A DNA stretch of 50,942 nt from the IMG/VR virus record IMGVR_UViG_3300007509_000009, positions 1 through 50,942 of that record; one strand, 5' to 3'. The first letter of the stretch is position 1. Each line of letters begins with the position of its first letter. The translations under genes were made by a program, and so were the position numbers. The stretch is from a virus. Lineage: Duplodnaviria; Caudoviricetes. This document shows, one piece after another, positions 1 to 48,800 of this stretch. The notes below the pieces were generated by a model. That model saw only the letters and a list, made by a program, of their open reading frames with translations, was not told the origin of the DNA and ran no database searches.

Positions 1-119
1 CGGTTACCAGCGGAGTCTGAGCCAGGATCTCTGGGCCTTCTTCCAGGACTACGGACTCCACCTCAAGGCCAAGATCAGAGGGCAGCACCCTCTCCATCTG
101 GGCCGGGTTCTCCGGGGTA
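1..119. repeat. 119-bp terminal direct repeat (circular assembly overlap), copy 1
   Basis: 1-119 is identical to 50824-50942 and lies inside a reading frame that continues across the join. Confidence 0.97.
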
Positions 120-10595: not shown

Positions 10596-10623
10596 ATTCT
10601 ACGGGGGGCGGGCCTCGTGTCAA
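10596..10623 (-). promoter_or_regulatory. Sigma70-type promoter for the capsid operon
   Basis: TTGACA-16 nt-TAGAAT on the minus strand. Confidence 0.7.
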
Positions 10624-10723
10624 GTGCCCGCCCACCCCACTTAGCTGCTGAGGCTTGCCATGCGGGGACTGCAGGGCGGGCGGCTAATTCTAGCACGCGC
10701 TGCTAACAAAACGCTCCCCACAT

Positions 10724-10930
10724 TCAATCCGCTTCGAGCAACTCGATTTTCTTTTGCAGATAGTGCGCGGCCTTCAAGAGATCCGTTTTCCGGTCACCCT
10801 TGGATCTGAGAAGATACTTGATTACATTGCCCTCGAAAAAGTCGAGGTCGTATTCTTCTATGACGTCCCAGGGTTGGATGGCACGCAGCCGATAGTGATC
10901 GCCGCCGACCTGCGTGTCGCTCGCGCTCAT
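10724..10930 (-). CDS. DUF3310 / T7 gp1.7-like putative nucleotide kinase, 68 aa
   Basis: QVGGDHY...IQPWD...FFEGNVIKY...DLLKAAHYL; ATGA overlap with the upstream stop. Confidence 0.85.
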   Translation of the reverse strand: MSASDTQVGGDHYRLRAIQPWDVIEEYDLDFFEGNVIKYLLRSKGDRKTDLLKAAHYLQKKIELLEAD

Positions 10931-11172
10931 TTTACTTCTCTCAAACCGGCCCGCGACAGATAATCGACCAGCTCGGTCATCAGCTCCAGGTGCATAGCCA
11001 CCAACGCGAGCCAGCAATCATTCAGATCGACAGGACCCTCCGGCCCATCAGCGGCCACCCCGCTAAGGTCCAGGTCCTCCAAAGACATCAGCACACTGAG
11101 ACTGCTCGACAGCGAATCGTGAAATCCTTGTAGGCCATCGTACTGCTGCTGGACCAGCTTCATATCAATCAT
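10927..11172 (-). CDS. Hypothetical acidic protein, 81 aa
   Basis: Overlaps both neighbours in operon fashion. Confidence 0.6.
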   Translation of the reverse strand: MIDMKLVQQQYDGLQGFHDSLSSSLSVLMSLEDLDLSGVAADGPEGPVDLNDCWLALVAMHLELMTELVDYLSRAGLREVK

Positions 11173-12388
11173 TGCTTCTCACCCTCACGATGCTGGCAAC
11201 ATGCCGTTCCACCTCGCCGAACTCCCGGTGGTGGACGATGGCGTTCATTTCGCGCATGGCTCGGTATCCCTTTGCATTGGTCCAGGCGTCTTTCGCCGCC
11301 AGTGTCCTGAAAAACTCGACCCCCACCCCGGACGGTTCGTGCTTCCGCTGGGTGTGGAAGTGGCCCAAATACCAATACCGGAACTCTGTTGCCGCCCACT
11401 CTTGGGGGCAGTCCTGAGCCAGGATTCCCGGCAGCTCTTGGATCTTCACATCATGTCCGTGGGTTGATCCGATCAGGCTTTTACCGAACTGATAGTACCA
11501 AAATGGATTGGGTGACGCGTCCACTTTGACCCTCGGCTCTTTCTCGTAGAACGCGTCCAGGATGAGTGCCAGCGCGTGACTGGTGTGATCGTCGTGGTTG
11601 CCAATGTTGTTGCGGACGATGACCTTCTTGTGCTTTTTGAGCGCGGCCTCGATGCAGGCCCGCATCGTCGCTGCGCCCATTCTCATCACGCGAGGCCACC
11701 GTGTATCAACATCCAACGGGTTTTTGCCTCGTGTAGTTACGTTCTGCTGATTGTCGGCGTGGAAAAAATCGCCCAGGTTCAGGATGATGGCCAGATCGCT
11801 AGGCGGGGCCGCTTCCGCCAATCGCGTCGTTGCAGAGATCAGATCTTGCGCCGCGATGTCAGTGTCAAAATCTTCGCCGGCTTCTTCTCCCCAAGCGTAC
11901 ATCCCCAGGTGGGGGTCGCCCATAACGTAACAGGTCAGCCGATCTTTGGAGGAGACCTTGGGCACCTTGACTTTTTTGGCTACTCCCCGGACTTCATCAG
12001 CAAGCTCCATAGCAAACGCACGCATCTGCTCAGCCTTTTGCTGCTCTTCAACCTGAGTCTTGTTCCACTGAATGATTACGTTGCCGTCAGCGTCGTAAAG
12101 CGTGGATGTACCTTTGACGAAATAGCCGGGGGCCGCCGCGTGGGTCATGTCGTGCGCGGGAGAGAATCCTCGCTTTGTGGCGCGGGCACGCACTTGCCCC
12201 ACGGCATCCGTGACGGTGGTGTGAGAGATCCCCATGGCTTTAGCCGCTGCGCGTGTCGTGCCGTGTTTGATCAGCATCTCAATCTTTTCGCGCTGCTTCG
12301 GCGTGGGCTCGCCGTATTCCAGCAACAGCCCCAGTTCCCTGGGATCATGCGATGCCGGGTGGCTTAAATGTGGTGAAGGCTTCGTCAT
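11165..12388 (-). CDS. HTH-fused calcineurin-like metallophosphoesterase, 407 aa
   Basis: HGTTRAAAKAMGISHTTV (HTH); GDPHLG, LGDFFH, GNHD, THGH and GHFH metallophosphoesterase motifs. Confidence 0.88.
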   Translation of the reverse strand: MTKPSPHLSHPASHDPRELGLLLEYGEPTPKQREKIEMLIKHGTTRAAAKAMGISHTTVTDAVGQVRARATKRGFSPAHDMTHAAAPGYFVKGTSTLYDADGNVIIQWNKTQVEEQQKAEQMRAFAMELADEVRGVAKKVKVPKVSSKDRLTCYVMGDPHLGMYAWGEEAGEDFDTDIAAQDLISATTRLAEAAPPSDLAIILNLGDFFHADNQQNVTTRGKNPLDVDTRWPRVMRMGAATMRACIEAALKKHKKVIVRNNIGNHDDHTSHALALILDAFYEKEPRVKVDASPNPFWYYQFGKSLIGSTHGHDVKIQELPGILAQDCPQEWAATEFRYWYLGHFHTQRKHEPSGVGVEFFRTLAAKDAWTNAKGYRAMREMNAIVHHREFGEVERHVASIVRVRSND

Positions 12389-12485
12389 GATTTCACCCGA
12401 AGCCCAATATGCACGGCGCTCGAATCGACCATACTACTTTCCTTGGCGAGGGAGCGAGTGGCGATAGTACCAAGGAATCTGCGCC

Positions 12486-12510
12486 AAAAAGAAGGGGCCC
12501 GAAGGCCCCT
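12486..12510 (-). terminator. Intrinsic terminator with UUCG loop
   Basis: AGGGGCC-TTCG-GGCCCCT-TCTTTTT on the minus strand; the preceding 12-bp stem (12520-12561) also has a U tail. Confidence 0.85.
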
Positions 12511-12650
12511 GAAAAAGATCGGGGTCCTGGCCGACAGTGGGAAGTAAGAGCCAGGACCCCGGGGGCTCAGGCAAACAAACCAGCGAAAACCCGAGCCGTG
12601 AGCCTGCCTACTGGGGGGCTACCGTGGGAGGACGGTGCTGCAGGCTCGCC
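12486..12650 (-). ncRNA. Candidate multi-hairpin antisense small RNA, about 160 nt
   Basis: Own promoter upstream, three GC-rich stems with pyrimidine-rich loops (CCUCCC; UUUUCGCUGGUUUGUUUG; UCUUACUUCCCACUGUCG) and U-tailed terminator hairpins; no credible ORF. Confidence 0.75.
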
Positions 12651-12653
12651 CCG

Positions 12654-12683
12654 ACCTTACTCTTGCCGACGCGGATAGGTCAA
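12654..12683 (-). promoter_or_regulatory. Putative sigma70 promoter of the sRNA
   Basis: TTGACC-18 nt-TAAGGT on the minus strand, just past the stop of the C1q-like gene. Confidence 0.5.
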
Positions 12684-12687
12684 CAGC

Positions 12688-13374
12688 CTATCTGATCCGG
12701 TGTATGAAAAACGCTGTCTCCCCAGTTTCCGTGGACACGTCTGTGGAGTCGCTGACGTCAGCGCGCCATCGAACGACCTCGCCTGCTGACAGGCTGATAA
12801 TGCCCGCTGCCGACAGCCCACCGCCGCCACTCGTCTCGCGCTGGTAGTCCTGGCCACGGATTGGCGGGGCCGGCTCTATCCACGTGCCGGAGCCCTGATC
12901 TCTCTGAATGAAGGCAAACGCCCGAGAGCGCGTTGCCCCTCCGCTGCCGTCGTCGTTAATTGGCATGTTAAGGCTAACATGATAATAGCCGGCGTCGGTG
13001 ACAGTAACCTCTCCAGAACTCAGCGCATAGTTGGCGTCCGGGTCAAACGCTTCCGAATCGAAAACGAGCGTGGCCTCGGTAGTGCTCAGATTCTGCGAGC
13101 CGGTGATCTCAAAGCCGGCTGGCTTTGCATCTACCCCGCTGCCAAGGGCGGCGATGGCCTGCTTCACCCGCTCGGGGCTCCACGTGCGTAGTGCCGTCTC
13201 GGTGCCCGCTTCGGCCTCTACTTGGGTGACATCGGGGGAGCTGATGGAGACCCAGGATGTGCCGTCCCAGCGCACCATGTCGCCAGTGGTCCCGACAGGA
13301 AGGACCTGCCCAGTCCCCTTCAGCGTCTGAAGGTACTCGGCAATCCACCGTGCATCTACTTCCTCAAGCGCCAT
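12688..13374 (-). CDS. Short fibre-like protein with C-terminal C1q/TNF-like domain, 228 aa
   Basis: TQVEAEAGTETALRTWSPERVKQAI fibre repeat; LVFDSEAFD...TVTDAGYYHVS...ISLSAGEVV...FFIHRI C1q-like pattern. Confidence 0.7.
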   Translation of the reverse strand: MALEEVDARWIAEYLQTLKGTGQVLPVGTTGDMVRWDGTSWVSISSPDVTQVEAEAGTETALRTWSPERVKQAIAALGSGVDAKPAGFEITGSQNLSTTEATLVFDSEAFDPDANYALSSGEVTVTDAGYYHVSLNMPINDDGSGGATRSRAFAFIQRDQGSGTWIEPAPPIRGQDYQRETSGGGGLSAAGIISLSAGEVVRWRADVSDSTDVSTETGETAFFIHRIR

Positions 13375-13541
13375 GAGTACCTCAAACGGTCTCCGTTAAC
13401 ATACCAGCGCACAATCTGAAGATCGACCAGCGGTCCCGACATGGCGCACAGGGTTGAGCAGAAGGGGGCGGTCTTGTACTCCATAACATTGCCGCAATGG
13501 TCGCACCGTCGTTCGTCTTCAGGCGGCGCGCTCTTCCTCAT
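13356..13541 (-). CDS. Small Cys-rich (Zn-binding) protein, 61 aa
   Basis: CDHCG...FCSTLC; ATGA coupling to the scaffold stop. Confidence 0.55.
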   Translation of the reverse strand: MRKSAPPEDERRCDHCGNVMEYKTAPFCSTLCAMSGPLVDLQIVRWYVNGDRLRYSWRLRK

Positions 13542-14497
13542 CCCCGGCGGGCGAGCTTCTGCTCCGCTTCGATGATCTGCAGGTACTCCTGCTGCATGCG
13601 CGTGTTGCCGTTGGCGTCTTTCGGGCCCTTCCAGTATTCGCTGCCTTGGCTCTTCATGGCCGTCTCAATGACGTCCTTGCGTGCCTGCATTGACTCCACC
13701 GTGGGTGCGTCCAGGCCGGTCAGGGTGCCTACGGGGTTCAGGTCGCGAGCGGTCTGCGCCAGCCACTGCATGATCTGGGGATCGTTCCCCAGGATGTTGC
13801 CGTCCAGGCCCCGGGCGGTCAGCAGCTTCTCGCTCAGCTCTTCCCCCAGCAGGTTGCCAATGGCGTTGATGTTGGGCCGGTAGTCGCTCTGCCAGGCCAT
13901 GCGTAGCTCGTCCACGCCCGCCTGCTTAAACGCCCGATCCGCTTCAATCTGCTGGGAGGCCTCCTGCTCGGCCAGGTCCGCGTACCAGCGGATCGCCTCG
14001 CTCGCTTGAGCCGGGTTCAGGTTGGTGGCGTGTGCAACGTCCTTGATGAACGACTCCACGATGCTCTCGTCGCCCTCTGGAAGAACTCTGCCATCCAAGT
14101 CCAGGTCGTAGCCCTCGGGCTTCAAAGGGATACCATTCTCCTCGCGCCATGCTTGAACCTCCTCGTCGCTCGCATCAGCAGCAAGTTGACGGCGCAGCTG
14201 GCCGGCAGACATCTGCTTACGCAAACCCAAGAAGGCCTCGGCCATCTTCTGCGGGGACGTGTACCGACTAAGGATAGACAGGCCGGCCTCGTCATCACCG
14301 GCCAACTGTGCGGCCCAGTCCTCTGGGAACCCGGCAGGAGCGTCAGTGCTGACCTCCTCGGTTCCGTCGATGGGGCCAACATCACCCTCTGCAGTATCAG
14401 TGGTCGCCTGATCACCCGCTGGGAGATCAACGTCGGACTGGGCGGAAAGGTCTACATCGCCACCGTCCATAGGATTTTCAACAGCCGCTTCTGCCAT
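13538..14497 (-). CDS. Capsid scaffolding/assembly protein, 319 aa
   Basis: Acidic disordered N-terminus; GIPLKPEGYDL, ELRMAW and LGNDPQIMQWL motifs; position between portal and capsid. Confidence 0.8.
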   Translation of the reverse strand: MAEAAVENPMDGGDVDLSAQSDVDLPAGDQATTDTAEGDVGPIDGTEEVSTDAPAGFPEDWAAQLAGDDEAGLSILSRYTSPQKMAEAFLGLRKQMSAGQLRRQLAADASDEEVQAWREENGIPLKPEGYDLDLDGRVLPEGDESIVESFIKDVAHATNLNPAQASEAIRWYADLAEQEASQQIEADRAFKQAGVDELRMAWQSDYRPNINAIGNLLGEELSEKLLTARGLDGNILGNDPQIMQWLAQTARDLNPVGTLTGLDAPTVESMQARKDVIETAMKSQGSEYWKGPKDANGNTRMQQEYLQIIEAEQKLARRG

Positions 14498-20394: not shown

Positions 20395-20426
20395 GTGTTG
20401 ACTTTGGGGAACGGGTGTGGGACAAT
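20395..20426 (+). promoter_or_regulatory. Early promoter P1 with overlapping operator-like motif
   Basis: TTGACT-17-GACAAT with extended TG; GTGTT-N4-TT-N4-AAC at 20395-20412. Confidence 0.7.
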
Positions 20427-20476: not shown

Positions 20477-20608
20477 ATGACCGATACCCGCCTCTTCCGC
20501 ACCATCGCATTCCGATCCAAGCAAGGCCTCGTCAAGGTCTTCTGGGGATTCAACCATCACCGCCGGGCCGCTGAATGGGCCGCCCTGCCTGCTTTAGAGG
20601 GGTGTTGA
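20477..20608 (+). CDS. Small early protein, 43 aa
   Basis: GGAG RBS 6 nt before the ATG, downstream of P1. Confidence 0.55.
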   Translation: MTDTRLFRTIAFRSKQGLVKVFWGFNHHRRAAEWAALPALEGC

Positions 20609-20633
20609 CTTTTTTTAACGCTTCCCTCATACT
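20602..20633 (+). promoter_or_regulatory. Early promoter P2 with operator-like motif
   Basis: TTGACT-17-CATACT; motif at 20602-20619. Confidence 0.78.
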
Positions 20634-20669
20634 TCCTCCTGAGCCCGCAAAACAAACCAAGGAAACACA

Positions 20670-20915: not shown

Positions 20916-21092
20916 ATGAAAAAGCGCGATTTGTTGACGCACGTTGGGCTGGAGGTTCTATCGAATCACGGCTACAGCATGGAAGAGTCGGTAGCCTACC
21001 TTGAGGAGCTGCGGCGCTTGCCGAAAGCTGAAATCTCGGCAGAGTGGCGACGACTGCGCTCATGCCGGCCATTACCGAAAGGGAGGCAGTGA
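20916..21092 (+). CDS. Small early protein, 58 aa (not in ORF track)
   Basis: GGAG RBS; MKKRDLLTHVGLEVLSNHGYSMEESVAYLEELRRLPKAE... Confidence 0.65.
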   Translation: MKKRDLLTHVGLEVLSNHGYSMEESVAYLEELRRLPKAEISAEWRRLRSCRPLPKGRQ

Positions 21093-21096
21093 GCGC

Positions 21097-21528
21097 ATGA
21101 GCCGCCGAGTAGACCCTCAGATTTCCTCGGGAGCCATGAGCGCCCAACCCTGCTGCGGCCCGGCCTCTATCTCGTTGGCGTGCGGCATTCCGCTCGGGGA
21201 AGCGATGCTCGCCGTGCAGGTGGCGGGCGGGTACGTGTCCCCACGGTGGCGGGGGGCCGTGAAGGCAGTCGCCCACCTGGAGACGGCGATCAAAGCCGTA
21301 GGCTGGTCCAGCAAGCGCATAACGGACGGGCGCGGCGTCACACTCAGGTGCTGGGTGGACGAGTTCTCTCGCCCCAGCGGGGTGTACATCGTCCGCACCG
21401 GGAACCACTTCCAGGCTGTAGTGAGGCAGGTTGTCAGCGACCAGCAGCAGCAGCTGAGGCACGCCGACGACTTCTGGGGAGCGCGCAAACGCGTAACCCA
21501 CATTTTAGAACTGAAGGAGAAGGCATAA
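21097..21528 (+). CDS. Putative papain-fold (C39-like) peptidase, 143 aa
   Basis: CCGPASISLACG nucleophile motif and YIVRTGNHFQAV...D. Confidence 0.55.
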   Translation: MSRRVDPQISSGAMSAQPCCGPASISLACGIPLGEAMLAVQVAGGYVSPRWRGAVKAVAHLETAIKAVGWSSKRITDGRGVTLRCWVDEFSRPSGVYIVRTGNHFQAVVRQVVSDQQQQLRHADDFWGARKRVTHILELKEKA

Positions 21529-21743
21529 TGGATAACATAGACATCAAGCACGCGCAGTGGATCGTCGAGCGCACAAAACAGCAACTGCAGGATGCGCGTC
21601 TCGCCTTGCGTCTTATCCAGGTCGGGAAAGATCTGTCCACTGCTTCCTCCCTGCTCGAAAGAACCGCACGTAAGGCGAGCGAGGTCGCGAGGAATGCGGA
21701 ACATCTCGCGGGAGAGACCGAAAGGGAGGTAGTGAGCGCATGA
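21528..21743 (+). CDS. Small helical early protein, 71 aa
   Basis: TAATG coupling, GGAG RBS. Confidence 0.7.
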   Translation: MDNIDIKHAQWIVERTKQQLQDARLALRLIQVGKDLSTASSLLERTARKASEVARNAEHLAGETEREVVSA

Positions 21744-21768
21744 GCAGACCGAAACGATGGAGGGACTA

Positions 21769-22044
21769 ATGGACAACTACCGAGCGGTCGCACTGGCCGA
21801 AGGCTTCGAGGAAGACGTCTCCGAGGAGGAGTACATCGCCGGCTACCAGGAGCTGATCAATAGCGGAGTCGCCTGGCGTCTCGAAGGATCTGTCGGTCGC
21901 GCTGCGATGGACATGATCGAGGCCGGCAAGTGCATGCTTGGTGAGGAGGGCCACCGTGACTACTGGGGCAACTACGTCCCCTCCCGTCACGAGGTCCTCG
22001 CCGGAACCAAGGGCTCCCCCGAATACGTTCAGGAGAGATCATGA
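21769..22044 (+). CDS. Conserved-type phage early protein, 91 aa
   Basis: YQELINSGVAWRLEGSVGRAAMDMIEAG motif; GGAGG RBS. Confidence 0.75.
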   Translation: MDNYRAVALAEGFEEDVSEEEYIAGYQELINSGVAWRLEGSVGRAAMDMIEAGKCMLGEEGHRDYWGNYVPSRHEVLAGTKGSPEYVQERS

Positions 22045-22205: not shown

Positions 22206-22439
22206 CAACATTAGAAGAGTGGGGGCAGTCAATAGGGTTAGTTGCCCCCCCTTCTTAAACAGCGGGCTTCTTTTAGCCCAGCGGGTGGAGGCGCACATAT
22301 CGCCCGCAGCAGGAGGCTCTCAGGCGTGGCAGGCAGCTCTAAGTGCCCCCGGCCTTGGTTCCTTCCGAGCGCGATCTCGGTTGAGCTGATCCTGCCGGCT
22401 GGCCCACGTCACGGGCCCCTCTTCTTGAGGGTTTGAGGG

Positions 22440-22471
22440 GTGTTGACTTTTCCTAACACTTCTTTCATACT
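22440..22471 (+). promoter_or_regulatory. Early promoter P3 with operator-like motif
   Basis: TTGACT-17-CATACT; full dyad GTGTT-N10-AACAC. Confidence 0.8.
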
Positions 22472-22496
22472 TCCTCTCGAACCAGCGGAGAACAAC

Positions 22497-22748: not shown

Positions 22749-22794
22749 CGAACAACCAGCAACGGGGCCTTCGGGCCCCTAGGGACAAACCAGC

Positions 22795-24106: not shown

Positions 24107-24109
24107 GGG

Positions 24110-24142
24110 GTGTTGACTTTCCCTAACGACATGTGAGAACAT
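24110..24142 (+). promoter_or_regulatory. Early promoter P4 with operator-like motif
   Basis: TTGACT -35 inside GTGTT-N4-TT-N4-AAC (24110-24127); weak -10 (GAACAT at 18 nt). Confidence 0.55.
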
Positions 24143-24193
24143 GTCCCTGTAGCCGAAGTATCGAGCTAATCCAACCTCAAACCAGGAGATGAC

Positions 24194-25300
24194 ATGACCT
24201 ATCTTTGCGAACTCCCAGCACCAGATCTGCGTAAGGCGATCCACGTCTGCATCCAGGCGCGGCGTCCGGTGATGCTTCACGGTGAGCCCGGCATCGGTAA
24301 GTCTGACAACGTGCGTCAGATTGTCGAGTCCATGCAGGGCCTCATCATCGATTTGCGGGCCAGCCAGATGGACCCGACCGATGGCAAGGGTGTCCCCTTT
24401 GTCCAAGAGGGTCGGACCCGCTGGGCCATCCCGGATTTCCTGCCAAGCCCCGAGCTGGCAGCTCAGTACCCGATTGTTGTGATCTTCCTCGACGAGCTGA
24501 ACAGTGCTCCCCTGATGGTTCAGGCGGCTCTCTACCAGCTGGTCCTGGACCGACAGCTCGGTGACTACGTCCTGCCGGATAACGTCCACATAATCGCAGC
24601 GGGCAACCTGCAGTCTGACCGGGCGGTGACCAACCGGATGTCCACCGCGCTCGCTGACCGATTCTTCCACCTGAAGCTGGGCGTTGAGAACGCGTCCTGG
24701 GAAAACTGGGCGCTGGGCTTCGAGGGTCTGGACCAGGAGAAGCTGGAGATCATCGACCCCATCGCGAGCCTCCCGCTGCACCTCGCAGTGATTGGCTACC
24801 TGAGGCTGCGTCCTGAGGACCTGCACCAGTTCGACCCGAAGTCGGGGGAACTCAGCTTCCCGACGCCACGAGGCTACCAGTACGTCAGCGACGTGCTCAA
24901 GGTCTGCGAGGCCACTGGGGTGAACGGAGCCATCGAGTCCGCCCTCCTGGCAGCCAAGCTTGGCGAGTCAGCCGGCGGAGGCCTGGCCGGATTCCTGAAC
25001 ATCTTCAGGGATGCGCCGAGCCCGCTGGAGATCCTCAAGGACCCGGCAGGGTTTGAGATTCCCGACCGGCCCGACCTGAACTGGGCTCTGTCCGGTGCGC
25101 TGGCACAGCGAGCGACCCTGGACAACTTCGCCGACATCATGGTCTACGCGAACCGAGTGGGAGCGTCGAGCAAGGCCGGCAAGGAGTACGAGGTCCTGAT
25201 GGTGGAGGGCTCGGTAGCGCGGAACCCCGAGCTTCGGGAGACCAAGGAATACTGCGACTGGGCCATCCGGTTCGGCAACGACATCATTTTTTCAGACTAG
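24194..25300 (+). CDS. MoxR-like AAA+ ATPase, 368 aa
   Basis: GEPGIGKS, IFLDELN, AAGN, ALADRF, PTPR. Confidence 0.92.
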   Translation: MTYLCELPAPDLRKAIHVCIQARRPVMLHGEPGIGKSDNVRQIVESMQGLIIDLRASQMDPTDGKGVPFVQEGRTRWAIPDFLPSPELAAQYPIVVIFLDELNSAPLMVQAALYQLVLDRQLGDYVLPDNVHIIAAGNLQSDRAVTNRMSTALADRFFHLKLGVENASWENWALGFEGLDQEKLEIIDPIASLPLHLAVIGYLRLRPEDLHQFDPKSGELSFPTPRGYQYVSDVLKVCEATGVNGAIESALLAAKLGESAGGGLAGFLNIFRDAPSPLEILKDPAGFEIPDRPDLNWALSGALAQRATLDNFADIMVYANRVGASSKAGKEYEVLMVEGSVARNPELRETKEYCDWAIRFGNDIIFSD

Positions 25301-34978: not shown

Positions 34979-35386
34979 TCAGGCGCTTTCAGGCGGGGGA
35001 ATGGTGTAGCCATGCTCTCCCGCCAGAATGATCAGCTCGTCGATCAGCCGGCTGTACTCGTCCTTGCCCGCGTCTGCGCTGGAGGCATTGGGCACCTCGC
35101 GCACCGTCCCCCCAAACCGGACAGTCTTGGACACGCCAAACGCCCGGCACTTACACTCGTTGTGGATGAAAGCCTCGGACTCCTTGGCGTTCATCCCTAG
35201 CTCGGCCCCGAAGGCCTTGAGCACGGTCCAATAGTAGCCGCGCTGCTCTGACGTGTGCAGCACCTTGGGCTCGCCAAAGCGCACAACGAACGGGCTGCCG
35301 GCCTGGTAGCGCCCCTTTATTTCATCCATTGCCTTCTGGGCTGCCGCTTTAGCCCCCTTGTTAACGACTATCTGCTGGTTTGCCAT
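34979..35386 (-). CDS. NinB/Orf-like recombination protein, 135 aa
   Basis: TSEQRGYYW...SSADAGKDEYSRLIDELIILAGEHG. Confidence 0.75.
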   Translation of the reverse strand: MANQQIVVNKGAKAAAQKAMDEIKGRYQAGSPFVVRFGEPKVLHTSEQRGYYWTVLKAFGAELGMNAKESEAFIHNECKCRAFGVSKTVRFGGTVREVPNASSADAGKDEYSRLIDELIILAGEHGYTIPPPESA

Positions 35387-35922: not shown

Positions 35923-36237
35923 TTGGGCGACCTGCCGTAATTCGGCTGCGGTCGGTAGTCTTGCTCCACCGTTGATATGCTGTTCGATGAGGTCTGCGGC
36001 ACTATGTCCTGCGCTCTCGTCGGGCCAAACGTCCTGCCATCCATTGATGATGCTCCTGTCCAGTAGCTGGTTTGGGTCATGGCCTTCGCCCATGAGGCGG
36101 GCCAACTTTCTCATGAGTCGCTTCTTCGCGACATCGGTCATGGGTTTCTTGATGCCCTTGCGGTGGGCGATGAAATCCTCCCAGGTCTCGGCGTCGAGCC
36201 AGTCCGGCACCAGGGCGTTGTTAAACAGATCGGTCAC
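35890..36237 (-). CDS. Stand-alone C-terminal domain of a lambdoid replication initiator, 115 aa
   Basis: PDWLDAETWEDFIAHRK..KKPMT...GHDP...SIINGWQDVW; GTGA coupling, GGAGG RBS. Confidence 0.72.
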   Translation of the reverse strand: MTDLFNNALVPDWLDAETWEDFIAHRKGIKKPMTDVAKKRLMRKLARLMGEGHDPNQLLDRSIINGWQDVWPDESAGHSAADLIEQHINGGARLPTAAELRQVAQRARRVERVKG

Positions 36238-36746: not shown

Positions 36747-37036
36747 CCTAACCTCCTTGTTTTCCTTGATGGGTAGGCTGGCCGGTGACCCGGGCACAGA
36801 CCCCCCGACCCCCCATGTTACTTTTGGTAACACAGCAGGCGGAGAGTCGATGCTGAGAGATAGGCTAGACCGTATATTCCCAGGCATCCCGGCATGCAGA
36901 TTAACGTCACCTTGCCGCTCCCACCCTGTGACGGACGTCGTTGCGCGCTACAAGACGTTCTGGGACAATCTCGCCGCTCGGTGCGGTCTATGGATTTCCT
37001 GTGAGTCTGTAGCCCGGCCACGACGCCGAGTTCTGC

Positions 37037-37066
37037 ACTATATGCGCCCCCGAGACTCTCCGTCAA
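37037..37066 (-). promoter_or_regulatory. Sigma70-type promoter embedded in an inverted repeat
   Basis: TTGACG-18-TATAGT within GCAC..TGCGCCCC / GGGGCGCA-GTGC arms. Confidence 0.55.
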
Positions 37067-37078
37067 CGGGGCGCAGTG

Positions 37079-37564: not shown

Positions 37565-38337
37565 CAGACGCAAAAACAAACCAGGAACTCGTTCCCAGGG
37601 AGGAGCCACAAAACGAAGACCGCAGCGCCCTCGTCGAGCTGATCGACAAGGTTGCCACGAACCCAGACGTTGACGCCTCGAAGATGAGCGAGCTGCTCGC
37701 CATCCAAGAGCGGATCTGGGACAGGGAGGAGGAGCACGCCTATAACGTGGCGATGCGCCAGGCGCAGCAGGACATGCCCCAGATTCATGCGGCAGACGTG
37801 AACACGCACACGAAATCCAGTTACGCAAAGCTGCACCGGATCATCAGGGCCATCACTCCGGTCTACACCCATCACGGCTTTAGCCTGAGCTTCTCTCAGG
37901 TGGATTCCCCGCTGGCGGGGCACATCCGCATTGAGTGTGAGGTGTCCCACATTGCGGGGCATACCAAGCAGAAGTTCTTAGACCTGCCAGTGGTGGACAC
38001 CGGGATCAAGGGAGAGAAGAACATGACGCTCACCCACGCACAGGGGTCGGCTTTCAGCTACGCCCGACGCTACCTGACGCTCATGGTGTTCAACCTGGCG
38101 ACAGGAGATGACGACGACGGGAATGCCGCCGGCACCGTTGAGTACGCGTCCCAGGAACAGATCTCTCGGCTCCATACGCTATTTGACAAGTCGTCCAACG
38201 AGAAGTGGGTGAAGGACACCAAAGAGTGGCTGCACAAGGCGCACGGGGTGGCAGACATCGAGCTGATCCCTGCGAACAAGTTCGAGGGGATCTACCGTGC
38301 CGTGTTCGCGGCCACCGGGCTGGGAGACAAATCATGA
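37561..38337 (+). CDS. ERF-family single-strand annealing protein, 258 aa
   Basis: SSYAKL...HGFSLSF...SHIAGH...QGSAFSYARRY...DDDGN. Confidence 0.9.
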   Translation: MTDAKTNQELVPREEPQNEDRSALVELIDKVATNPDVDASKMSELLAIQERIWDREEEHAYNVAMRQAQQDMPQIHAADVNTHTKSSYAKLHRIIRAITPVYTHHGFSLSFSQVDSPLAGHIRIECEVSHIAGHTKQKFLDLPVVDTGIKGEKNMTLTHAQGSAFSYARRYLTLMVFNLATGDDDDGNAAGTVEYASQEQISRLHTLFDKSSNEKWVKDTKEWLHKAHGVADIELIPANKFEGIYRAVFAATGLGDKS

Positions 38338-42814: not shown

Positions 42815-45800
42815 TTATTGTGGCCCAAACATCAGCAAGCGCAGCGCATCACCTGGGTGATCTGCCTCGCCGTCAAGGATTTCCATCATACCCGTAAACG
42901 ACCGCTCGGTCTGAACTGCCGGAAGGTGGAACAATACGCCCGTGGTTCGATTGAGCGCCTTCCAGAAAGGCGGATCAAGGTCGCCCTGCCTAACCTGCGT
43001 GGTTAGGTTTGCTAGTTCAGCGAATGCTCTTGCTCCAGCCGGGCCCTTGTAGCCGTGGTAACCCATGACAGCCGAGCCTAGCTCGCGCACGCCAGGGATG
43101 GTGCCCATAGCATACGAAATAATCTCTGCCGTCAGCTCTTCCTTTATGTCGTCCTCATCCTTGTCTTCGAGATTTCCGAAGAGCGCCTCCTGTAAGAAGT
43201 ATCCAACAACGGCTGGGACCATGTAGAGGAGCATTATGTCCCCCACCCACCCGGCAGCACCGGTTACGCCACCCTGACCAAGGCGCTTGCGCGTTTGCTC
43301 GATTGTCATGTTGTAGGTGGTGCTGAAGAACGAGTAGAAGTTGGTCCACAGCTTCATGAACGGAGAGCCGCGCTGGATGGCGGCCAGGTCAATTATCTGT
43401 CCACCGGCCTGAGCGTCACGCACAGACTGGTCGGCCACCGCAACGGCCTTCGCCTCGTCCATGCCGGAAGCCATGGATTTCTCGTAGGCACCGAGCCAGG
43501 TGGGAATGTCTACCACCATCTGCATGCGCGTAAGCATCCAGAACAGGGTGTCCCTCATCCCGCTGTGGGGCCCTTCCACCCTGTTCCGAATCTCATTGAT
43601 TTCACGTAGCTGTGTGCGGGCCCTGTCTCTCATAAACGGCGACACACTGTTGATCCACTTGACAGTTCCTTCCATGTGCTGCGCGTCACGCCCGGCCCAC
43701 TTCAGGAATCCCTTCGCTACCCACTGCGGGCCAACCCGCACGATGGACTGGCTCAGGCCGAGGATCTGCACTGAGGTGGTGGTGAACGAGTATCCCATGG
43801 AGGCAATGGAAGAGCCGACTCTCAGGTGGTTGAAAAACCGCTCCCACCCGTTCTTTGCGCCCACGTAGCCGGCAGCGACGTCGGTGATGATGTTCTTGAG
43901 CTGATCGTATTTCACGCGCCCGAACCCGTCGCGGATTGCTTTCTCGACTCGCCGGTCACCCAGCACGCGATTCAGGTCTACCAGCATCTCAGTGTGGGTC
44001 AGGTCGTGGATCACGTCGTCCAGGTGCTGGAAGATCGCGCCGAAGTCGAGACGCATGGGGCGCTCCAGCGGCTTCGCTACGCGGCCCTTCCTGTGGCCGT
44101 GCCGGGTCTGGGCTCGAACTGATGCCCCGCCCATGGCTCGCTTCGCTTTCTCGACCGCATCCAAAACCTCCGCCCGGTTGGACAGCTTAGAGTTGTACAG
44201 CGCCGGAAAGTATTGGCCCTGGACCTCGCCAAACTTGGTCTGAATCGTCAGCCCCTCAACCTTCTCCGGGGCGAACCCATCCAGGCGCTCGGCCAAAGCC
44301 TTGGAGTCGGCCCAGTAGCTATTGACCACATTCCAGATGCTTTCGATGAAGCTCCAGTCTTCCTGAGTCAGTGTGTCGAGGATCGCCTGAACCTGGGACT
44401 CCGACCAACCGTATCCGGCCATCAGGCGCTCGCGGTTACCCTGGTTGCCCCAGTTCATCCCCACCATGATCCGGCCCATGCGCGTGAGAGAATCGTCGAT
44501 CTCGGGGATAAATTGCTTTGTGTACATCGAGTCGTCGATCCGCATGCCCATGAATCGGGTGGCGAAATTCTTGGCCTGCTCTGACCAGGTGGCGAACGGA
44601 CGGAATGCCTCAAAGACCTTCTTCGCCGCCTCAGCTCGCATGTCAGCTTCTCGGTCAGCGGCCTCGTTGGCTGGCCGGATGAACGCTTCCCAGGCGAGCC
44701 CGCCGTCCTCGAACCCGTCCAGCTCCCGGATGATGGAGGAGGCCTTGCGGAACATCCCGAACGCGTCCCCAAAGAATTGGGAAGCTCGGTCCTGGGGAAG
44801 CTCGGTCTCTATGTCCGTAGGCCCCTTCTTGTTCTTGTTTTCATTGAGCGCCTCAACAAGCGCCTCAACGAATGCGTCGAACGAACGCTGGTCCTGGATC
44901 TTCATCAGCCGGTTCTTCAGCCGGGCCAGATGCTCCAGGTGCTTCATGCTGTCGCGCACCTCGCGCAACTCTTCGATACGAAGCTCTTTGTAGTTCTTGC
45001 GGTATGCCTCGTTGAGTATGTTGTCAGGCAGGGAGATAGGCTCGCCAGCCTCTTCCTTCGCCTCAACGAAGTCGCGCAGCGACTGCCTCTCATCCAGGGC
45101 CCGCAATGGAACATTGGCGAACTCGAACCGGGAGGCGATCTCCATGATCTGTTCCAGGTAGCCGGCCTTGCCCATGGCCTGGCGGACCTGCTTTCTGCCA
45201 AACTTCCGCACGTACTTGACGGTTGCGGCAACCTCCTCCTTGACTCGTCTCGCCTCCTTGTACAGCTCCAGGTTCAGCAGCTCCTGGCGCTTGGCCTGAG
45301 CGGCTGCCTCGAAATCCTGGCGGGCGAGCGCCTGGGTTGCTTCTCTGGACGCTTTCTGGGACGCGGTCAGGTAGAGACCGGGGCGGAGGGCGCGGACCTT
45401 TTGGGCAGCGATCATGCCCCTGGCTACCTCCCTGAAGGTCTTCAGGGTGGGCACCTCGTCGCGCAGAATCTGCCGGCCTGTGCGCTGCTGTGCCTGCATT
45501 GCTCTGATTGCTGGTGCCGCTGCACGCTGCATGGCCCGCAGGGCTTTCATTTCCGCACGCACCATCTCAGCTTGCTTGTCGTTGAGGGTCACCTCCATGG
45601 CCTTCTCGGCCAGGGCCTCACGATCCTGAAGCAGGCCTGGGTATTTCTCCCTCATGCGTTGCTCGCCCATCTCCTTGGCCACCGCCAGCTGGGGCCGGGC
45701 ATCCCGGATCAGCTGAATCATCTCGTCTGTGGAGCTGATCCCCACCATCTCCGCGATCTGGTCAGGGTGAACCCCCTCGTCGTCGAGCATGCCCCGGAAT

Positions 45801-48800
45801 GGGCGCAGGTCTCCGGTCAGCTCTTTCATGGTGGCCCGGTCCAGCTTCAGATCGAACTCGCGCCCGTCAGGCAGCACACCGTTCTTCAGGGCATTGATCA
45901 GGATGTACTCTTGGCTCCAGTTGGTCTCCTCGATGGCCTGGTCGATCTCGGCCTTGAGGCGCTTCTTCCACTCCGTGCGGTTCTCTCGCATCCACTCCCG
46001 GATCAGCTGCTGCTGCAGGCGCTCACGAGCCTGCCGGCTCTCGTCTGCAATGCCAGTCTGGTAAGCTGCCCATTCAGCGTCGGACATGTTGGGAGGCTTG
46101 TTCATGAACAGCGGGGTGATCTCTGCCTCGGCCTGAGCGGCAGCGATCTGCTCATCAGTGGCCAGCATGCGGTCGAACACGCCGCGCACCTCGTCATTGA
46201 GCGTGACGTTCAACGCCTTGGCGTCGTCGTAGAGGCCGATCAACCAGGCGCGGAACCTGGCGAATGCGCGGCGCAAACCAACCGAGGGAGCCTTGCCCTC
46301 CATCGCGTAGGCCTCGAACCCGCGAGCGAATTGCTCCTTCTGGTCTACGCCGATCTCGTCGATGGAGCTGACGCCAAACCACTGCAGCAGAACCTCCATG
46401 TCGTCAATCATGCGAAGCTTGTTGTCTCCGATAGCCTCGCCACGCTCAGTGGCTTGTTGAGCCTCCCGGACCAAGTCAGAGAATATCTCCAGGAATACGT
46501 GTCCTGACTCGTGAATGAACGTGGAGGCGTCGGCGTTCTCCAGCAGGCCAATCTTCATTGTGCGATCTGCGGAGATAGCCGTGTACCCGCGAGGGCCGGA
46601 GGGGTCGCGCTGTTCCAGGCGCTCGACCTCAATCAAAGCCTCATCCCAGATCACGAAGTTGCGCTCGTCGGAGGTGCGGCCTTTGTAGGTGAGGCCGGGG
46701 ATGCCAGCTTCGGACAAGAACTCTGATGCTCCCCGCGCCCCGTCCAGCCTTTCGAGGGCGTTGTATAGCTTCCACCCGGGTTGATACAGCCACCTCGTAA
46801 CAGAAGCCTCAACGGCCTGCTGCTCCGTATCGTACTGAGCAAACGACTGGACCCGAACAGTCCCGCCAATGACATCCCGTGGTGCGTACCTGTACCCGTA
46901 CTTCCCGTCATCCTGAAAGATCTCCCTGCCCACGCCCGCCAAGTGCTCCATCACCGGTCTCAGCGCATCCTGAATCTCCTGAGATTGCTGTATGGGCTGC
47001 CTGTCGTAGTCCAGAAGCTCCTCGGTCTCGGGGATGTTGACTTCGTAGAGGTGGCCCTTTTGCATCTCGAAGGTGTCTTTCAGATGCTTGTCTAGTTTCC
47101 TTGCCGCTGGGTTCGTATCGAAAGCAGCCGGTTTTCTTCCTGCAGAGAATGAAGCAACCCCGTTGTCAACGATGTACCCGTAAGGATCGCTCTTCTCTCC
47201 CACGAAGTCTCTTGCCCACTGCTCTATCTCACTGAGAGAGAGTTTTTGCCCTGACTCTTTGTGGATGAACTCTCTCTTGCCCAATGCTCTTTGATAGTGC
47301 TCGCCGACCTCCTTCTTGCTCGCGAAGTACAGACCCCAGCCATACGCCTGACGGCCTTCGCCCGTACCAATGGCGTGCAGGCTGAACTTCTCGAATCGGT
47401 GCGGGGAGCCATGCCAGGCGGACTGGTACAGGAGCTGCTCGGGAGCAAACTGCTCGAAGAACTCCGGGCGCACCAGGGTCTCGTGCTCGATCTCATCGGC
47501 GCGGCCTGCTTCACCCAGGATGCGGGATACTGCGTCGTCCGTCAGGATTCTTGTTATGCGCGCCTCTCCGGCAATGACCCAGGGGTCACCGTACTTGGAG
47601 TAGTGGTACAGGCCACCAACCGGCACGGCGCTACCCAGGCGGGGCTCACCCGTCGTCTCCAGGATGGCGTCGTAGTCAATGTCGGCGGACACCTCCATCT
47701 CCACATACACCCGATTGGGCGCAATGGTGCCGGCCTTGGTTCTTAGCTGAGGTGTGATTGGCAGCATGGCCCCGTGAATCCCCGCCGAAGGGAACAGGTC
47801 CATCTTGGCCTGGGTGGAGAGCACGCCGTACTCCCACTTGCCCACAGTAAAGGGGAGAGGTTTCTTGCGCCCCTTGGCGTCTAAGACTCTGCCAGCGAAC
47901 AGCGGGTACAGCTTCCCGTCTTTGCCTACCTCAACCAGCTTGTAGGCCTTTACTGTTTTTCGGGGCGGCCTTCTTTCGGCCCCCTGTTCAGCCCGTCCAC
48001 GAACCGCTGCACTATCCGCGATCTCTTCTCTCGGAGTGCTTGCTTCGTAGACGGTGTCTGAGATTTCTCCCGCTTTTCTTGCGGCATTGAGTTGCTCCAT
48101 GACCCGGCTATCCAGGTCGGTGTAATCAATCTTCTGAATGGTCTCCAGGGGTGCAACCTGAGAGTTTCCGAACCCCCGCGTGTTATCAATCAGGATGACC
48201 TCAACCTGATCGTTGTCCGCATACAGGTCATTGATCTGGGAGATCGCCCTCGACGAGCCAATGTGCCCCCTAACAAACGGGACCACGTTGACCACCCTGC
48301 CAGTGCTCATCGCCCTCGGGAGTGCGCCGCTGCCGTCGATGCCAGGGGTTCCTCTGAACGCCTCCACAGGATCTCGCATCACATAGATGATCTCGACGTT
48401 GGCCCCGGTCTTCAGGACGAGGTCGATGCGCCTGGCTGCCTTGTCAGCGTTCCCCATGATCGTGTCATAGGTGAACACTGACTCCTCGTCACCAATGGCG
48501 TCGCGGATGGCGGAGGTCTTCCCTGCGGCAGCACCACCAGCGGTGAACAGGACCGTGTCGTCAGCGGTGAGCCCTGCGACCTTCTCTTCAAAGTACCGGT
48601 TGGTGAACCAGCTGGCCGGCTCGTGTACTGCGTTGGACAAAGACTTGTCTGCCGCATAGGAGGGAACCAGCAGGCGGGCCTCGTCTACGTTGATGACGGT
48701 GCCGCCCTTGGTGCCTTCCAGCTCGGCGTAGGCGGCCTTCGCGGCCTCATAGTCCTCGAAGACCCGGGTGGCCTCGTGCGCCACGCGTCGTTCTCTCTGG

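What the first reader, a model, noticed from the sequence alone, without database searches (positions are those of the whole stretch)
12486..12683. Multi-hairpin small RNA whose loops are antisense to the phage's own early-gene ribosome-binding sites
Seen: a minus-strand unit with a promoter-like TTGACC-18-TAAGGT, three GC-rich stems with exposed pyrimidine loops, and U-tailed terminators. Loop 2 (UUUUCGCUGGUUUGUUUG) can pair with 22478-22491 (CGAACCAGCGGAGA, 14 contiguous pairs including 3 G-U, covering the SD of the 22497 gene), 22783-22794 (12 pairs abutting ATG 22795), 20650-20659 (10 pairs, next to the SD of the 20670 gene), 24178-24189 (8+4 pairs over the AAA ATPase SD) and 37574-37584 (11 pairs in codons 5-8 of ERF). 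Loop 1 (CCUCCC, extendable to GUCCUCCC) matches GGGAGG SDs at 21081, 21724, 27983 and 39882. Loop 3 can pair with GGGAGGUAG at 21724-21732. Known precedents: P1 C4 and P4 CI antisense RNAs, and CCUCC-loop cuckoo sRNAs. Inference: a multi-target RNA repressor that silences early genes, possibly standing in for the missing CI or shutting early genes off late in infection.
Basis: partly seen in the sequence, partly recalled or inferred. Interest (0 to 1): 0.88.

Follow-up and report, generated by a model that had tools for sequence, protein, structure and literature searches.

The report
Phage small RNA matching early-gene leaders
An uncultured marine phage carries a terminator-flanked hairpin whose loop is the mirror image of a short motif that sits almost only at the translation starts of its own early genes, so it may be an RNA switch that turns those genes off, though nobody has yet seen the RNA itself.

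Summary
The structures are real. The 299-nt minus-strand gap 12389-12687 holds two GC-rich hairpins (SL1, SL2) and two intrinsic terminators (T1, T2).

The G-U-inclusive pair counts are at chance: 309 sites genome-wide, 11 at translation starts, about 10 expected. Loops 1 and 3 show nothing special.

The Watson-Crick core of loop 2 is not chance:
- CAAACCAG, its complement, is the most start-region-enriched 8-mer in the genome. It occurs 6 times; 5 lie at gene starts and the sixth is the loop's own opposite strand.
- Of about 101,850 18-mers, the loop-2 window ranks first for trans complementarity to start regions.
- Loop shuffles give P = 0.001-0.005.

Four targets sit on or beside the Shine-Dalgarno sequence or AUG of early genes (20670, 22497, 22795, 24194). 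Three lie at recombination genes.

Best reading (about 0.5): a base-pairing RNA, made alone or as the 3' end of the first late transcript, that represses early-gene translation.

Missing evidence: expression data, close relatives for covariation, and a convincing promoter. It matches no Rfam family. Verdict: a new variant of a known kind, supported only by computation.

The parts
12654..12683 (-). Putative weak sigma-70-like promoter, TTGACC-18 nt-TAAGGT. It starts 4 nt downstream of the stop codon (12690-12688) of the 228-aa ORF.
   Evidence: Coordinates. The -35 region shares TGTTGAC with the four early promoters, but this 7-mer occurs 12 times in the genome. The -10 hexamer matches the consensus at 3 of 6 positions, and the tool's promoter scan did not report the site.
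12600..12647 (-). SL1: an outer 8-bp stem (GAGCCUGC/GCAGGCUC) enclosing an inner hairpin with the 6-nt loop CCUCCC (12631-12626).
   Evidence: Minimum-free-energy fold and base-pair probabilities; coordinates.
12564..12597 (-). SL2: a 9-bp stem (GGCUCGGGU/GCCUGAGCC) closing the 16-18-nt U/G-rich loop 2.
   Evidence: Loop positions are mostly unpaired in the ensemble.
12572..12589 (-). Loop 2, the proposed seed: UUUUCGCUGGUUUGUUUG, core CUGGUUUG.
   Evidence: It is the top-ranked 18-mer in the genome for trans complementarity to start regions: 7, 5 and 3 start regions at 8, 9 and 10 nt. Shuffle P = 0.001-0.005.
12511..12560 (-). T1/SL3: a 12-13-bp GC-rich stem with a 17-nt loop, then GAUCUUUUUC. 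This is an intrinsic terminator.
   Evidence: (-28.3 kcal/mol, the strongest hairpin-plus-T-tract in the genome).
12486..12510 (-). T2: AGGGGCC-UUCG-GGCCCCU followed by UCUUUUU. This is a second intrinsic terminator.
   Evidence: The same 16-nt hairpin occurs at 22764-22779 (+).
20650..20659 (+). Target site in the leader of the 73-aa early gene (ATG 20670). AAACAAACCA abuts the AAGGA Shine-Dalgarno sequence.
   Evidence: 10 nt Watson-Crick; the duplex spans -21..-4.
22478..22491 (+). Target site at the 5' end of the leader of the 83-aa early gene (ATG 22497). It covers the GGAG Shine-Dalgarno sequence.
   Evidence: 8 nt Watson-Crick (AACCAGCG) inside 14 contiguous pairs. It gives the best duplex energy, -20.7 kcal/mol.
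22783..22794 (+). Target site abutting ATG 22795 of the DUF6011 gene.
   Evidence: 10 nt Watson-Crick within 12 pairs; the duplex spans -13..+7; gene family.
24178..24185 (+). Target site overlapping the AGGAG Shine-Dalgarno sequence of the MoxR-like AAA ATPase gene (ATG 24194).
   Evidence: 8 nt Watson-Crick; gene family.
37574..37584 (+). Target site in codons 5-8 of the ERF recombinase gene (ATG 37561).
   Evidence: 11 nt Watson-Crick; gene family.
35374..35384 (-). Target site in codons 1-5 of a 135-aa NinB/Orf-like gene (ATG 35386).
   Evidence: 9 nt Watson-Crick within 11 pairs; weak phrog_72 hit.
36066..36074 (-). Target site at the start of the 227/239-aa ORF. It lies at -30..-22 of ATG 36044, or at codons 3-5 if ATG 36080 is the start.
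   Evidence: 9 nt Watson-Crick. The start codon is ambiguous.

Best explanation
The minus strand of 12486-12683 encodes a base-pairing regulatory RNA of about 135-165 nt.

How it would be made. Either from its own weak sigma-70-like promoter, starting near 12647, or as the stable 3' end of the first late transcript (small terminase, large terminase, portal, scaffold-like, 228-aa ORF). It would end at terminator T1 (about 12512) or T2 (about 12486).

How it would act. The exposed SL2 loop carries the seed CUGGUUUG plus flanks. The seed pairs with a CAAACCAG motif that this phage places next to, or on top of, the Shine-Dalgarno sequence or start codon of early genes (20670, 22497, 22795, 24194), and at the starts of three recombination-module genes (35386, 36044/36080, 37561 ERF). 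Pairing would block 30S ribosomal-subunit binding, and perhaps trigger mRNA decay. If the RNA is made with the late genes, it would switch off early-protein synthesis late in infection. That would make it an RNA counterpart of the T4 RegA and RegB proteins.

What is shown: the structures, the terminators, the complementarity and its statistical enrichment.
What is inferred: that the RNA is transcribed and stable, that it pairs in the cell, that it represses, and when.
For: 1. In an unbiased scan of all 41,662 8-mers present, CAAACCAG is the most start-region-enriched. Five of its 6 copies lie in the -30..+25 windows, which hold 3.4% of positions (binomial 2.8e-7). CAAACCA is the top 7-mer, with 6 of 11 copies there.
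2. The only copy outside a start region is the opposite strand of loop 2.
3. Among all 18-mers on both strands, the loop-2 window ranks first for the number of start regions matched in trans: 7, 5 and 3 at 8, 9 and 10 nt. All 8 windows that reach 5 start regions at 9 nt lie at this locus.
4. Runs of 8 nt or more occur in 6 of 64 start regions, against 2 of 832 internal sense windows and 2 of 832 antisense windows. 2000 shuffles give P = 0.005 at 8 nt and 0.001 at 9 nt.
5. Duplex energy of -17 kcal/mol or better occurs in 6 of 64 start regions against 11 of 734 internal windows (Fisher 0.0013; shuffle P 0.01).
6. The matches extend beyond the shared core in different registers that follow the loop: AAACAAACCA, AAACAAACCAG, ACAAACCAGC, AACCAGCG.
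7. In the two paralogous early promoters (a 55-nt repeat, 82% identical), the motif sits at non-homologous offsets. It therefore was not simply copied along with the promoter.
8. In the four early genes the duplex covers the Shine-Dalgarno sequence or the AUG.
9. The loop is predicted to be unpaired. It lies directly upstream of the two cleanest intergenic hairpin-plus-U-tract terminators found in my own scan, and both read on the minus strand only.
10. The same pipeline run on two related phage genomes gives no comparable motif.
11. Precedent: lambda late-operon sRNAs are reported to interact with early-operon RNAs (passage read).
Against: - No RNA run holding the sequence was listed, so there is no evidence on transcription either way.
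- No relative is close enough to test conservation or covariation. Portal identity is 52% or less in viral and metagenome contigs. The 228-aa neighbour has no relatives. Public runs that hold the phage are near-identical.
- The promoter is weak and the scan tool did not call it.
- With G-U pairs allowed, or at mild energy thresholds, there is no enrichment.
- Cofolding the whole RNA with each leader does not single out the proposed targets. The top three were 33349, 4611 and 22795.
- The seed matches are short (8-11 nt).
- About five other loci reach 7 start regions at 8 nt. They are anti-Shine-Dalgarno-like strings inside genes, except 24175-24195, which is the opposite strand of the 24194 target.
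- Gene starts come from my own heuristic caller.
- The finding was selected because of these matches, so the shuffle P values are partly post hoc.
Confidence: 0.5

Rival explanations
1. This is an ordinary structured 3' end. SL1 and SL2 are stabilising or processing hairpins, and T1 and T2 are a tandem terminator that closes the first late transcription unit. On this reading the loop-2 complementarity to gene starts has no function. It would be a coincidence, or a decaying inverted copy of an early leader.
For: - The element sits directly after the last gene of a terminase-portal-scaffold block.
- It carries the strongest terminators in the genome.
- No promoter was called, and no RNA family matched.
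- The plus strand of the loop resembles the 20670 leader over about 20 nt, which fits a copy origin.
- Energy models that allow G-U pairs are not selective.
Against: - The only non-start copy of the genome's most start-enriched 8-mer would have to fall by chance in an unpaired loop. Only 6.3% of 18-mer positions lie outside genes and leaders at all.
- The loop ranks first genome-wide.
- Shuffle P = 0.001-0.005.
- The matches extend in several registers.
Confidence: 0.27
2. The region is the 5' leader (attenuator) of the exonuclease operon. The TTGACC promoter would drive a roughly 260-nt leader in which T1 and T2 stop most transcripts, and read-through expresses the 15-codon upstream ORF and the exonuclease gene. 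Any short RNA would be a by-product, which could still act in trans.
For: - The order promoter-like site, hairpins, two terminators, Shine-Dalgarno-preceded upstream ORF (12432-12385), then ATG 12388 overlapping it, matches leader architecture.
- In phage 201phi2-1, 8 of 11 sRNAs found by transcriptomics came from premature termination in 5'UTRs (passage read).
Against: - I found no alternative antiterminator fold.
- Two strong terminators in tandem make a poor tunable attenuator.
- This reading does not explain the loop-2 match to gene starts.
- The promoter is weak.
Confidence: 0.12
3. CAAACCAG serves something other than this RNA. It could be a site for an RNA-binding translational repressor or an endonuclease in the manner of RegA or RegB, a translational enhancer, or a DNA operator. 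The copy at 12572-12589 would then be a further site or decoy read on the plus strand.
For: - The motif is strongly tied to gene starts whether or not the loop matters.
- T4 uses proteins to recognise short motifs in early start regions (passages read).
- On the plus strand the motif is also displayed in a hairpin loop.
Against: - The plus strand has no promoter of the early type nearby; the TGTTGAC sites are listed.
- The plus strand has no U-tract terminator here.
- All 7 start-region copies are in the sense orientation of their genes, and their distance from the early promoters varies from about +1 to +30. This argues against a DNA operator.
- No RegA- or RegB-like protein turned up in the 50 ORFs scanned.
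Confidence: 0.1

Closest known systems
T4 RegA (translational repressor) and RegB (endoribonuclease cutting GGAG in early start regions)
   Same: Both give post-transcriptional silencing of many early phage mRNAs at once, by recognising a short sequence in or beside the ribosome-binding site. Both help the switch from early to later expression (review PMC3014915, passages read).
   Different: Those regulators are proteins. Here the proposed recogniser is an RNA loop and the recognised motif is CAAACCAG. Nothing has been shown experimentally.
P1 C4 and P4 CI antisense RNAs (features recalled, not from a call)
   Same: Each is a small structured phage RNA whose loops pair with repeated complementary sites in the phage's own early transcripts.
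   Different: As recalled, those are immunity factors of temperate elements. They are processed from the very operon they control, act on two sites, and work largely through premature termination or coupled translation. Here there are seven dispersed sites in several operons and no sign of lysogeny genes. No Rfam family reached threshold.
Lambda Hfq-dependent sRNAs PreS/LPR1, LPR2 and 6S (bioRxiv 10.1101/2024.10.31.621285; abstract and section 17 read)
   Same: They are phage-encoded trans-acting sRNAs. The late-operon RNAs LPR2 and 6S are reported to interact with early-operon RNAs.
   Different: PreS acts on host genes (dnaN, alaS). No multi-gene motif at the phage's own ribosome-binding sites is described in the parts I read. 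There is no sequence relation.
3'UTR-derived base-pairing sRNAs of bacteria (class recalled; review PMC5502269 seen only in a search listing)
   Same: Each has a seed in a single-stranded region just upstream of the mRNA's own intrinsic terminator, and is made either from an internal promoter or by processing.
   Different: Those are host-encoded and belong to stress regulons. Here the RNA would be phage-encoded and would time the infection cycle.
Rfam BjrC68 (Bradyrhizobiaceae sRNA)
   Same: A two-hairpin shape with GC-rich stems and a U tail. The weak match covers SL2 and T1 (20.9 bits).
   Different: The score is well below the gathering score of 39. The loops do not align; they are 17 nt here against 15 and 3 in the model. 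The match reflects shared shape, not membership.
CCUCCUCCC-loop ('cuckoo'/CcsR-type) sRNAs of Alphaproteobacteria (recalled)
   Same: An anti-Shine-Dalgarno C/U-rich hairpin loop, as in SL1.
   Different: There is a single 6-nt CCUCCC loop here, not repeated 9-nt motifs. There is no Rfam hit. GGAGG Shine-Dalgarno sequences occur in late genes as much as in early ones, so no selectivity follows.

Membership tests
Trans-acting base-pairing sRNA (generic class) | Intrinsic terminator (GC-rich hairpin plus U tract) at the 3' end | tested here: met
   T1 and T2 lie on the minus strand.
Trans-acting base-pairing sRNA (generic class) | Single-stranded seed region | tested here: met
   Loop 2 is mostly unpaired in the predicted ensemble. 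This is a prediction only.
Trans-acting base-pairing sRNA (generic class) | Seed complementarity concentrated at translation-initiation regions beyond chance | tested here: met
   for Watson-Crick pairing. Not met when G-U pairs are counted freely.
Trans-acting base-pairing sRNA (generic class) | A discrete, stable transcript (own promoter or processing) | not testable with these tools
   No RNA holder was listed. The promoter-like site is weak.
Trans-acting base-pairing sRNA (generic class) | Conservation of structure and seed, or covariation with targets | tested here: inconclusive
   No relative close enough was found. Exact loop searches gave only chance hits. The runs that were laid are near-identical.
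Rfam BjrC68 (RF02353) | Score at or above the curated gathering score (39 bits) | tested here: not met
   20.9 bits. No family in the window reaches its gathering score.
P1 C4 / P4 CI-type immunity RNAs | Match to a curated model, or encoded within and processed from the operon it represses, in a temperate element | tested here: not met
   No Rfam match. The RNA lies in the late structural block, not in the target operons. No integrase or CI was found in the 50 ORFs scanned. The family's defining features are recalled.
CCUCCUCCC-loop (cuckoo/CcsR) sRNAs | Repeated hairpins with CCUCCUCCC loops | tested here: not met
   There is one 6-nt CCUCCC loop and no Rfam match. The family definition is recalled.
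Intrinsic (Rho-independent) terminator | Stable GC-rich stem-loop followed at once by a U-rich tract on the transcribed strand | tested here: met
   T2 was called by the tool (7 pairs, 6 of them G-C, loop 4, TCTTTTT). T1 scored -28.3 kcal/mol in my scan.

The most novel reading that the evidence does not exclude
This is a phage 'early-gene regulon' run by one RNA. A small RNA made with the late genes, or cut from the 3' end of the late terminase-portal transcript, would use one loop to recognise a dedicated leader motif (CAAACCAG). The phage would have installed that motif beside the ribosome-binding sites of at least four early genes and three recombination genes. The result would be a timed translational shut-off of the early programme: an RNA-only equivalent of T4 RegA or RegB, in an uncultured marine podovirus lineage.
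Probability: 0.4. Interest if true: 0.8.

Novelty: new variant of a known kind. Interest (0 to 1): 0.62.

Why it matters
Small RNAs are now being detected in lytic phages by transcriptomics, but their targets and roles are mostly unknown (passages read; review PMC12197685, passages read). The early-to-late switch in phages is usually explained by proteins.

This case gives a concrete hypothesis that can be falsified: one loop, one 8-nt leader motif and seven named sites. It can be tested with reporters alone, without culturing the phage or its unknown host.

If confirmed, it would show that a phage can wire its own temporal programme through a shared RNA 'address' next to ribosome-binding sites. 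It would also give a simple search rule for other phage genomes: find the top start-region-enriched k-mer, then look for its complement in a terminator-proximal loop.

Tried and rejected
Family and similarity searches
- Rfam at gathering scores on the whole window gave 0 matches. At E up to 10 on the region, only sub-threshold hits appeared: BjrC68 at 20.9 bits, microRNA models, Atu_C8 and Bp1_781. I rejected these as family membership.
- No tRNA or tmRNA.
- blastn of the region against 50,697 phage records gave no match.

Search for relatives
- Exonuclease gene: 98 relatives at 52% identity or less. I read the upstream 700 nt of 16 of the 80 loci kept. All lie in unrelated contexts, so the gene is mobile and tells nothing about synteny.
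- The 228-aa neighbour has no relatives.
- Portal: 22 viral and 28 metagenome loci, all 51% identity or less over the best segment.
- In the 12 loci I mapped, those with clean ORF calls run portal, scaffold, then capsid with a 120-220-nt gap, with no 228-aa ORF or exonuclease gene in between.
- AAA ATPase: one relative at 37% identity.
- Best cultured phage by portal is about 29% identical.

Exact searches with the 18-nt loop
- One viral hit, inside a coding region.
- 56 hits in genome contigs. None has the flanking stem, so they are chance.

Same motif pipeline on two related records (G001, G002): no analogous motif or loop.

Pairing and energy models
- G-U-inclusive run counts show no enrichment.
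- Duplex energies at -10 to -14 kcal/mol show none either (Mann-Whitney P 0.84).
- Duplex folding with an extended loop, and cofolding with the whole RNA, were dominated by melting of GC-rich stems and were not informative.

Other checks
- Loops 1 and 3 as specific regulators: rejected.
- No shared late-promoter motif between the region upstream of the RNA and 10 other upstream regions.
- A fixed distance between the motif and the early promoters' -10 boxes, which a promoter or initiator element would require: rejected, because the offsets differ.
- Expression: no RNA holder was listed.
- The four DNA runs laid (X6-X9) are contigs. X7-X9 are essentially identical to the window. X6 differs at 75 places, and none of the 40 shown lies in 12389-12687. 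However, 35 are not shown and cover there is thin, so this says nothing about conservation.
- Supplementary files of papers were not opened. The sRNA tables of the phage transcriptome papers (for example Table S4 of PMC11512511) might list similar late-region RNAs.

Literature
Searches for a phage sRNA that silences its own early ribosome-binding sites were. Papers opened were. I found no description of such a system in what I read. This covers only the held open-access library.
Full report
**What the window is**
The window is a complete virus record of 50,942 bp with direct terminal repeats. The repeat is 119 bp. GC content is about 60%.

Public runs that hold the sequence are marine or seawater metagenomes: 10 holders in 6 studies, 3 of them possibly the source.

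The phage has a T7-type portal, a Phage_capsid_2 major capsid protein and a large terminase. No cultured phage has a portal more than about 29% identical. No uncultured contig exceeds 52%. It is therefore an orphan lineage with an unknown host.

**Where the finding sits**
On the minus strand the gene order is: small terminase (20459-20016), large terminase, portal, a 319-aa scaffold-like protein, a 61-aa ORF, a 228-aa ORF with no family, then the 299-nt gap 12389-12687. After the gap come a 407-aa HTH/metallophosphoesterase gene ('DNA repair exonuclease', phrog_704), a DUF3310 gene and the major capsid gene.

In the 12 related loci I mapped, those with clean ORF calls go from scaffold to capsid with only a 120-220-nt gap. 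The block from the 228-aa ORF to DUF3310 therefore looks like an insertion. The finding lies at the 3' end of the first late transcription unit.

Yes, as anatomy.
- TTGACC is at 12683-12678 and TAAGGT at 12659-12654, 18 nt apart.
- SL1 is 12647-12600, with loop CCUCCC.
- SL2 is 12597-12564, with loop 2 at 12589-12572.
- T1 is 12560-12511 and T2 is 12510-12486.
- The fold is more stable than shuffles: z = -3.6, with 0 of 200 shuffles as good.
- In my own scan for hairpins followed by T tracts, T1 (-28.3 kcal/mol) and T2 are the cleanest intergenic, sense-strand terminators in the genome. The tool also calls T2.
- The terminators work only on the minus strand, which fixes the strand of any RNA.
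- The promoter is the weak point. The -10 hexamer matches the consensus at 3 of 6 positions and the tool finds no promoter in 11000-14000.
- The phage clearly uses sigma-70-type promoters elsewhere. There are four early ones, gGGGTGTTGACTTT-17 nt-CATACT or similar, at 20396, 20603, 22441 and 24111. A near-consensus TTGACA-16 nt-TAGAAT lies before the capsid gene.

**Is the complementarity more than chance?**
The answer depends on how pairs are counted.

With G-U pairs allowed it is not. Sixteen of the 18 loop bases are G or U, so the loop pairs promiscuously. There are 309 runs of 10 or more pairs, 11 of them in start regions, where about 10 are expected. Duplex energies at mild thresholds show nothing.

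With Watson-Crick pairing it is.
- 6 of 64 start regions (-30..+20) hold a run of 8 nt or more. That compares with 2 of 832 internal sense windows and 2 of 832 antisense windows.
- 2000 loop shuffles average 1.08 (P = 0.005). For 9 nt or more the count is 4 against 0.31 (P = 0.001).
- At -17 kcal/mol or better the count is 6 of 64 against 11 of 734 (Fisher 0.0013; shuffle P 0.01).

- I ranked every 18-mer of both strands by the number of start regions (-30..+25) it matches in trans. The loop-2 window came first, with 7, 5 and 3 regions at 8, 9 and 10 nt. All 8 windows that reach 5 regions at 9 nt lie at this locus. The other loci with 7 regions at 8 nt are strings inside genes that complement Shine-Dalgarno-plus-ATG or Met-Ala-Glu starts, except 24175-24195, which is the opposite strand of the 24194 target.
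- I ranked all 8-mers by enrichment in start regions. CAAACCAG came first: 5 of 6 copies, binomial 2.8e-7 among 41,662 8-mers, about 0.01 after Bonferroni correction. CAAACCA was the top 7-mer, ahead of the Shine-Dalgarno strings.

The single copy outside a start region is the opposite strand of loop 2. Only 6.3% of 18-mer positions lie outside genes and leaders at all.

Two related genomes put through the same pipeline show nothing comparable.

**What the targets look like**
- Four sites are in 5' leaders of plus-strand early genes, and their duplexes cover the Shine-Dalgarno sequence or the AUG: 20670 (-21..-4), 22497 (-20..-5), 22795 (-13..+7) and 24194 (-17..-4).
- Three of those genes are the first gene after an early promoter.
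- Three further sites lie at the starts of recombination-module genes: a NinB-like gene at 35386, the ORF at 36044/36080, and ERF at 37561.
- The matches extend beyond the common core in different directions that follow the loop sequence.
- The promoters at 20603 and 22441 share a 55-nt repeat (82% identical). When that repeat is aligned in register, the motif of one lies opposite non-motif sequence of the other. The motif was therefore acquired separately and not copied with the promoter.

**Loops 1 and 3**
- GGGAGG, the complement of loop 1, is just a strong Shine-Dalgarno sequence. It has 39 copies, and GGAGG sits at 20 starts, 14 of them on the minus strand.
- Loop 3 shows no enrichment (P about 0.9).
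- I do not count either loop as evidence.

**Mechanism**
The best-supported reading is a base-pairing RNA whose SL2 loop masks the ribosome-binding sites of early genes. Its position just before the terminators of the first late unit makes a 3'UTR-type RNA at least as likely as a separately transcribed one. In that case it would appear with late transcription, and the effect would be a late shut-off of early translation.

Only the sequence-level facts are shown. Transcription, stability, pairing in the cell, repression and timing are all inferred.

**Evidence against**
- There is no expression evidence in either direction.
- There are no relatives for a covariation test.
- The promoter is weak.
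- The seeds are short.
- Cofolding with the whole RNA does not single out the proposed targets.
- The gene starts are my own calls.

**Rivals**
- A plain tandem terminator with a fortuitous or decaying leader copy (0.27).
- A leader or attenuator of the exonuclease operon (0.12). This does not exclude trans action.
- A motif that serves a protein or another function, with the loop copy as an extra site (0.10).

**Comparison with what is known**
- The proposed function resembles T4 RegA and RegB, which silence many early mRNAs at their start regions, but with RNA as the recogniser.
- The closest RNA precedents are P1 C4 and P4 CI (recalled) and the lambda late-operon sRNAs that contact early RNAs.
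- It is not a member of any curated family.
- In the three literature searches and the papers opened I found no phage sRNA described as targeting a shared motif at several of its own early ribosome-binding sites.

**Verdict**
- Observation: partly confirmed.
Loop 2 is supported; loops 1 and 3 and the CI idea are not.
- Novelty: a new variant of a known kind, supported only by computation.
- Interest: 0.62.

Noticed in passing
window 20396-20416, 20599-20648, 22437-22486, 24107-24127 (+): There is a family of early promoters, gGGGTGTTGACTTTnnCTAAC. Two of them share a 55-nt repeat that ends in TCATACTTCCTC. These define the plus-strand early operons.
   Followed up: partly
window 24128-24145 (+): A perfect 7-4-7 palindrome, GACATGT-GAGA-ACATGTC, overlaps the -10 region of the third early promoter. 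It looks like an operator for a dimeric repressor.
   Followed up: no
window 10596-10623 (-) and 10687-10695 (-): A near-consensus sigma-70 promoter, TTGACA-16 nt-TAGAAT, and a second extended -10 (TGCTAGAAT) lie in the structured gap of about 300 nt before the major capsid gene. Late genes therefore seem to use host RNA polymerase.
   Followed up: partly
window 12385-12432 (-): A 15-codon upstream ORF (MVDSSAVHIGLRVKS) has its own AAGGA Shine-Dalgarno sequence. It ends in ATGA, overlapping the exonuclease start codon, which suggests translational coupling.
   Followed up: no
window 22764-22779 (+) and 12494-12509 (-): The same 16-nt hairpin, GGGGCCUUCGGGCCCC, occurs as terminator T2 and, without a U tract, in the leader of gene 22795 just upstream of its loop-2 target site.
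   Followed up: no
window 21074-21102 and 21717-21745 (+): A 29-nt duplicated translation-start region (ACCGAAAGGGAGGyAGTGAGCGCATGAGC, 97% identical). The second copy opens only a 9-codon ORF.
   Followed up: partly
window 10724-13374 (-): The block of 228-aa ORF, exonuclease, 81-aa ORF and DUF3310 gene lies between scaffold and capsid. The related contigs with clean ORF calls have only a short gap there. The exonuclease's relatives sit in unrelated phage contexts, so it is a mobile cassette.
   Followed up: partly
window 21522-22039 (+): In one marine run (X6), a contig replaces 516 nt of the early region with 353 other letters. This is a natural cassette swap in a variant that is otherwise about 99% identical.
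   Followed up: no
window 36747-37078 (-) and 22206-22440 (+): Two further long non-coding gaps hold GC-rich hairpins, for example GCGCCCCG...CGGGGGCGC. I did not examine them for RNAs.
   Followed up: no
window 42815-50920 (-): A single ORF of 2701 aa runs up to the terminal repeat. It was not annotated here.
   Followed up: no
window 1-119 and 50824-50942: A 119-bp exact direct terminal repeat.
   Followed up: yes
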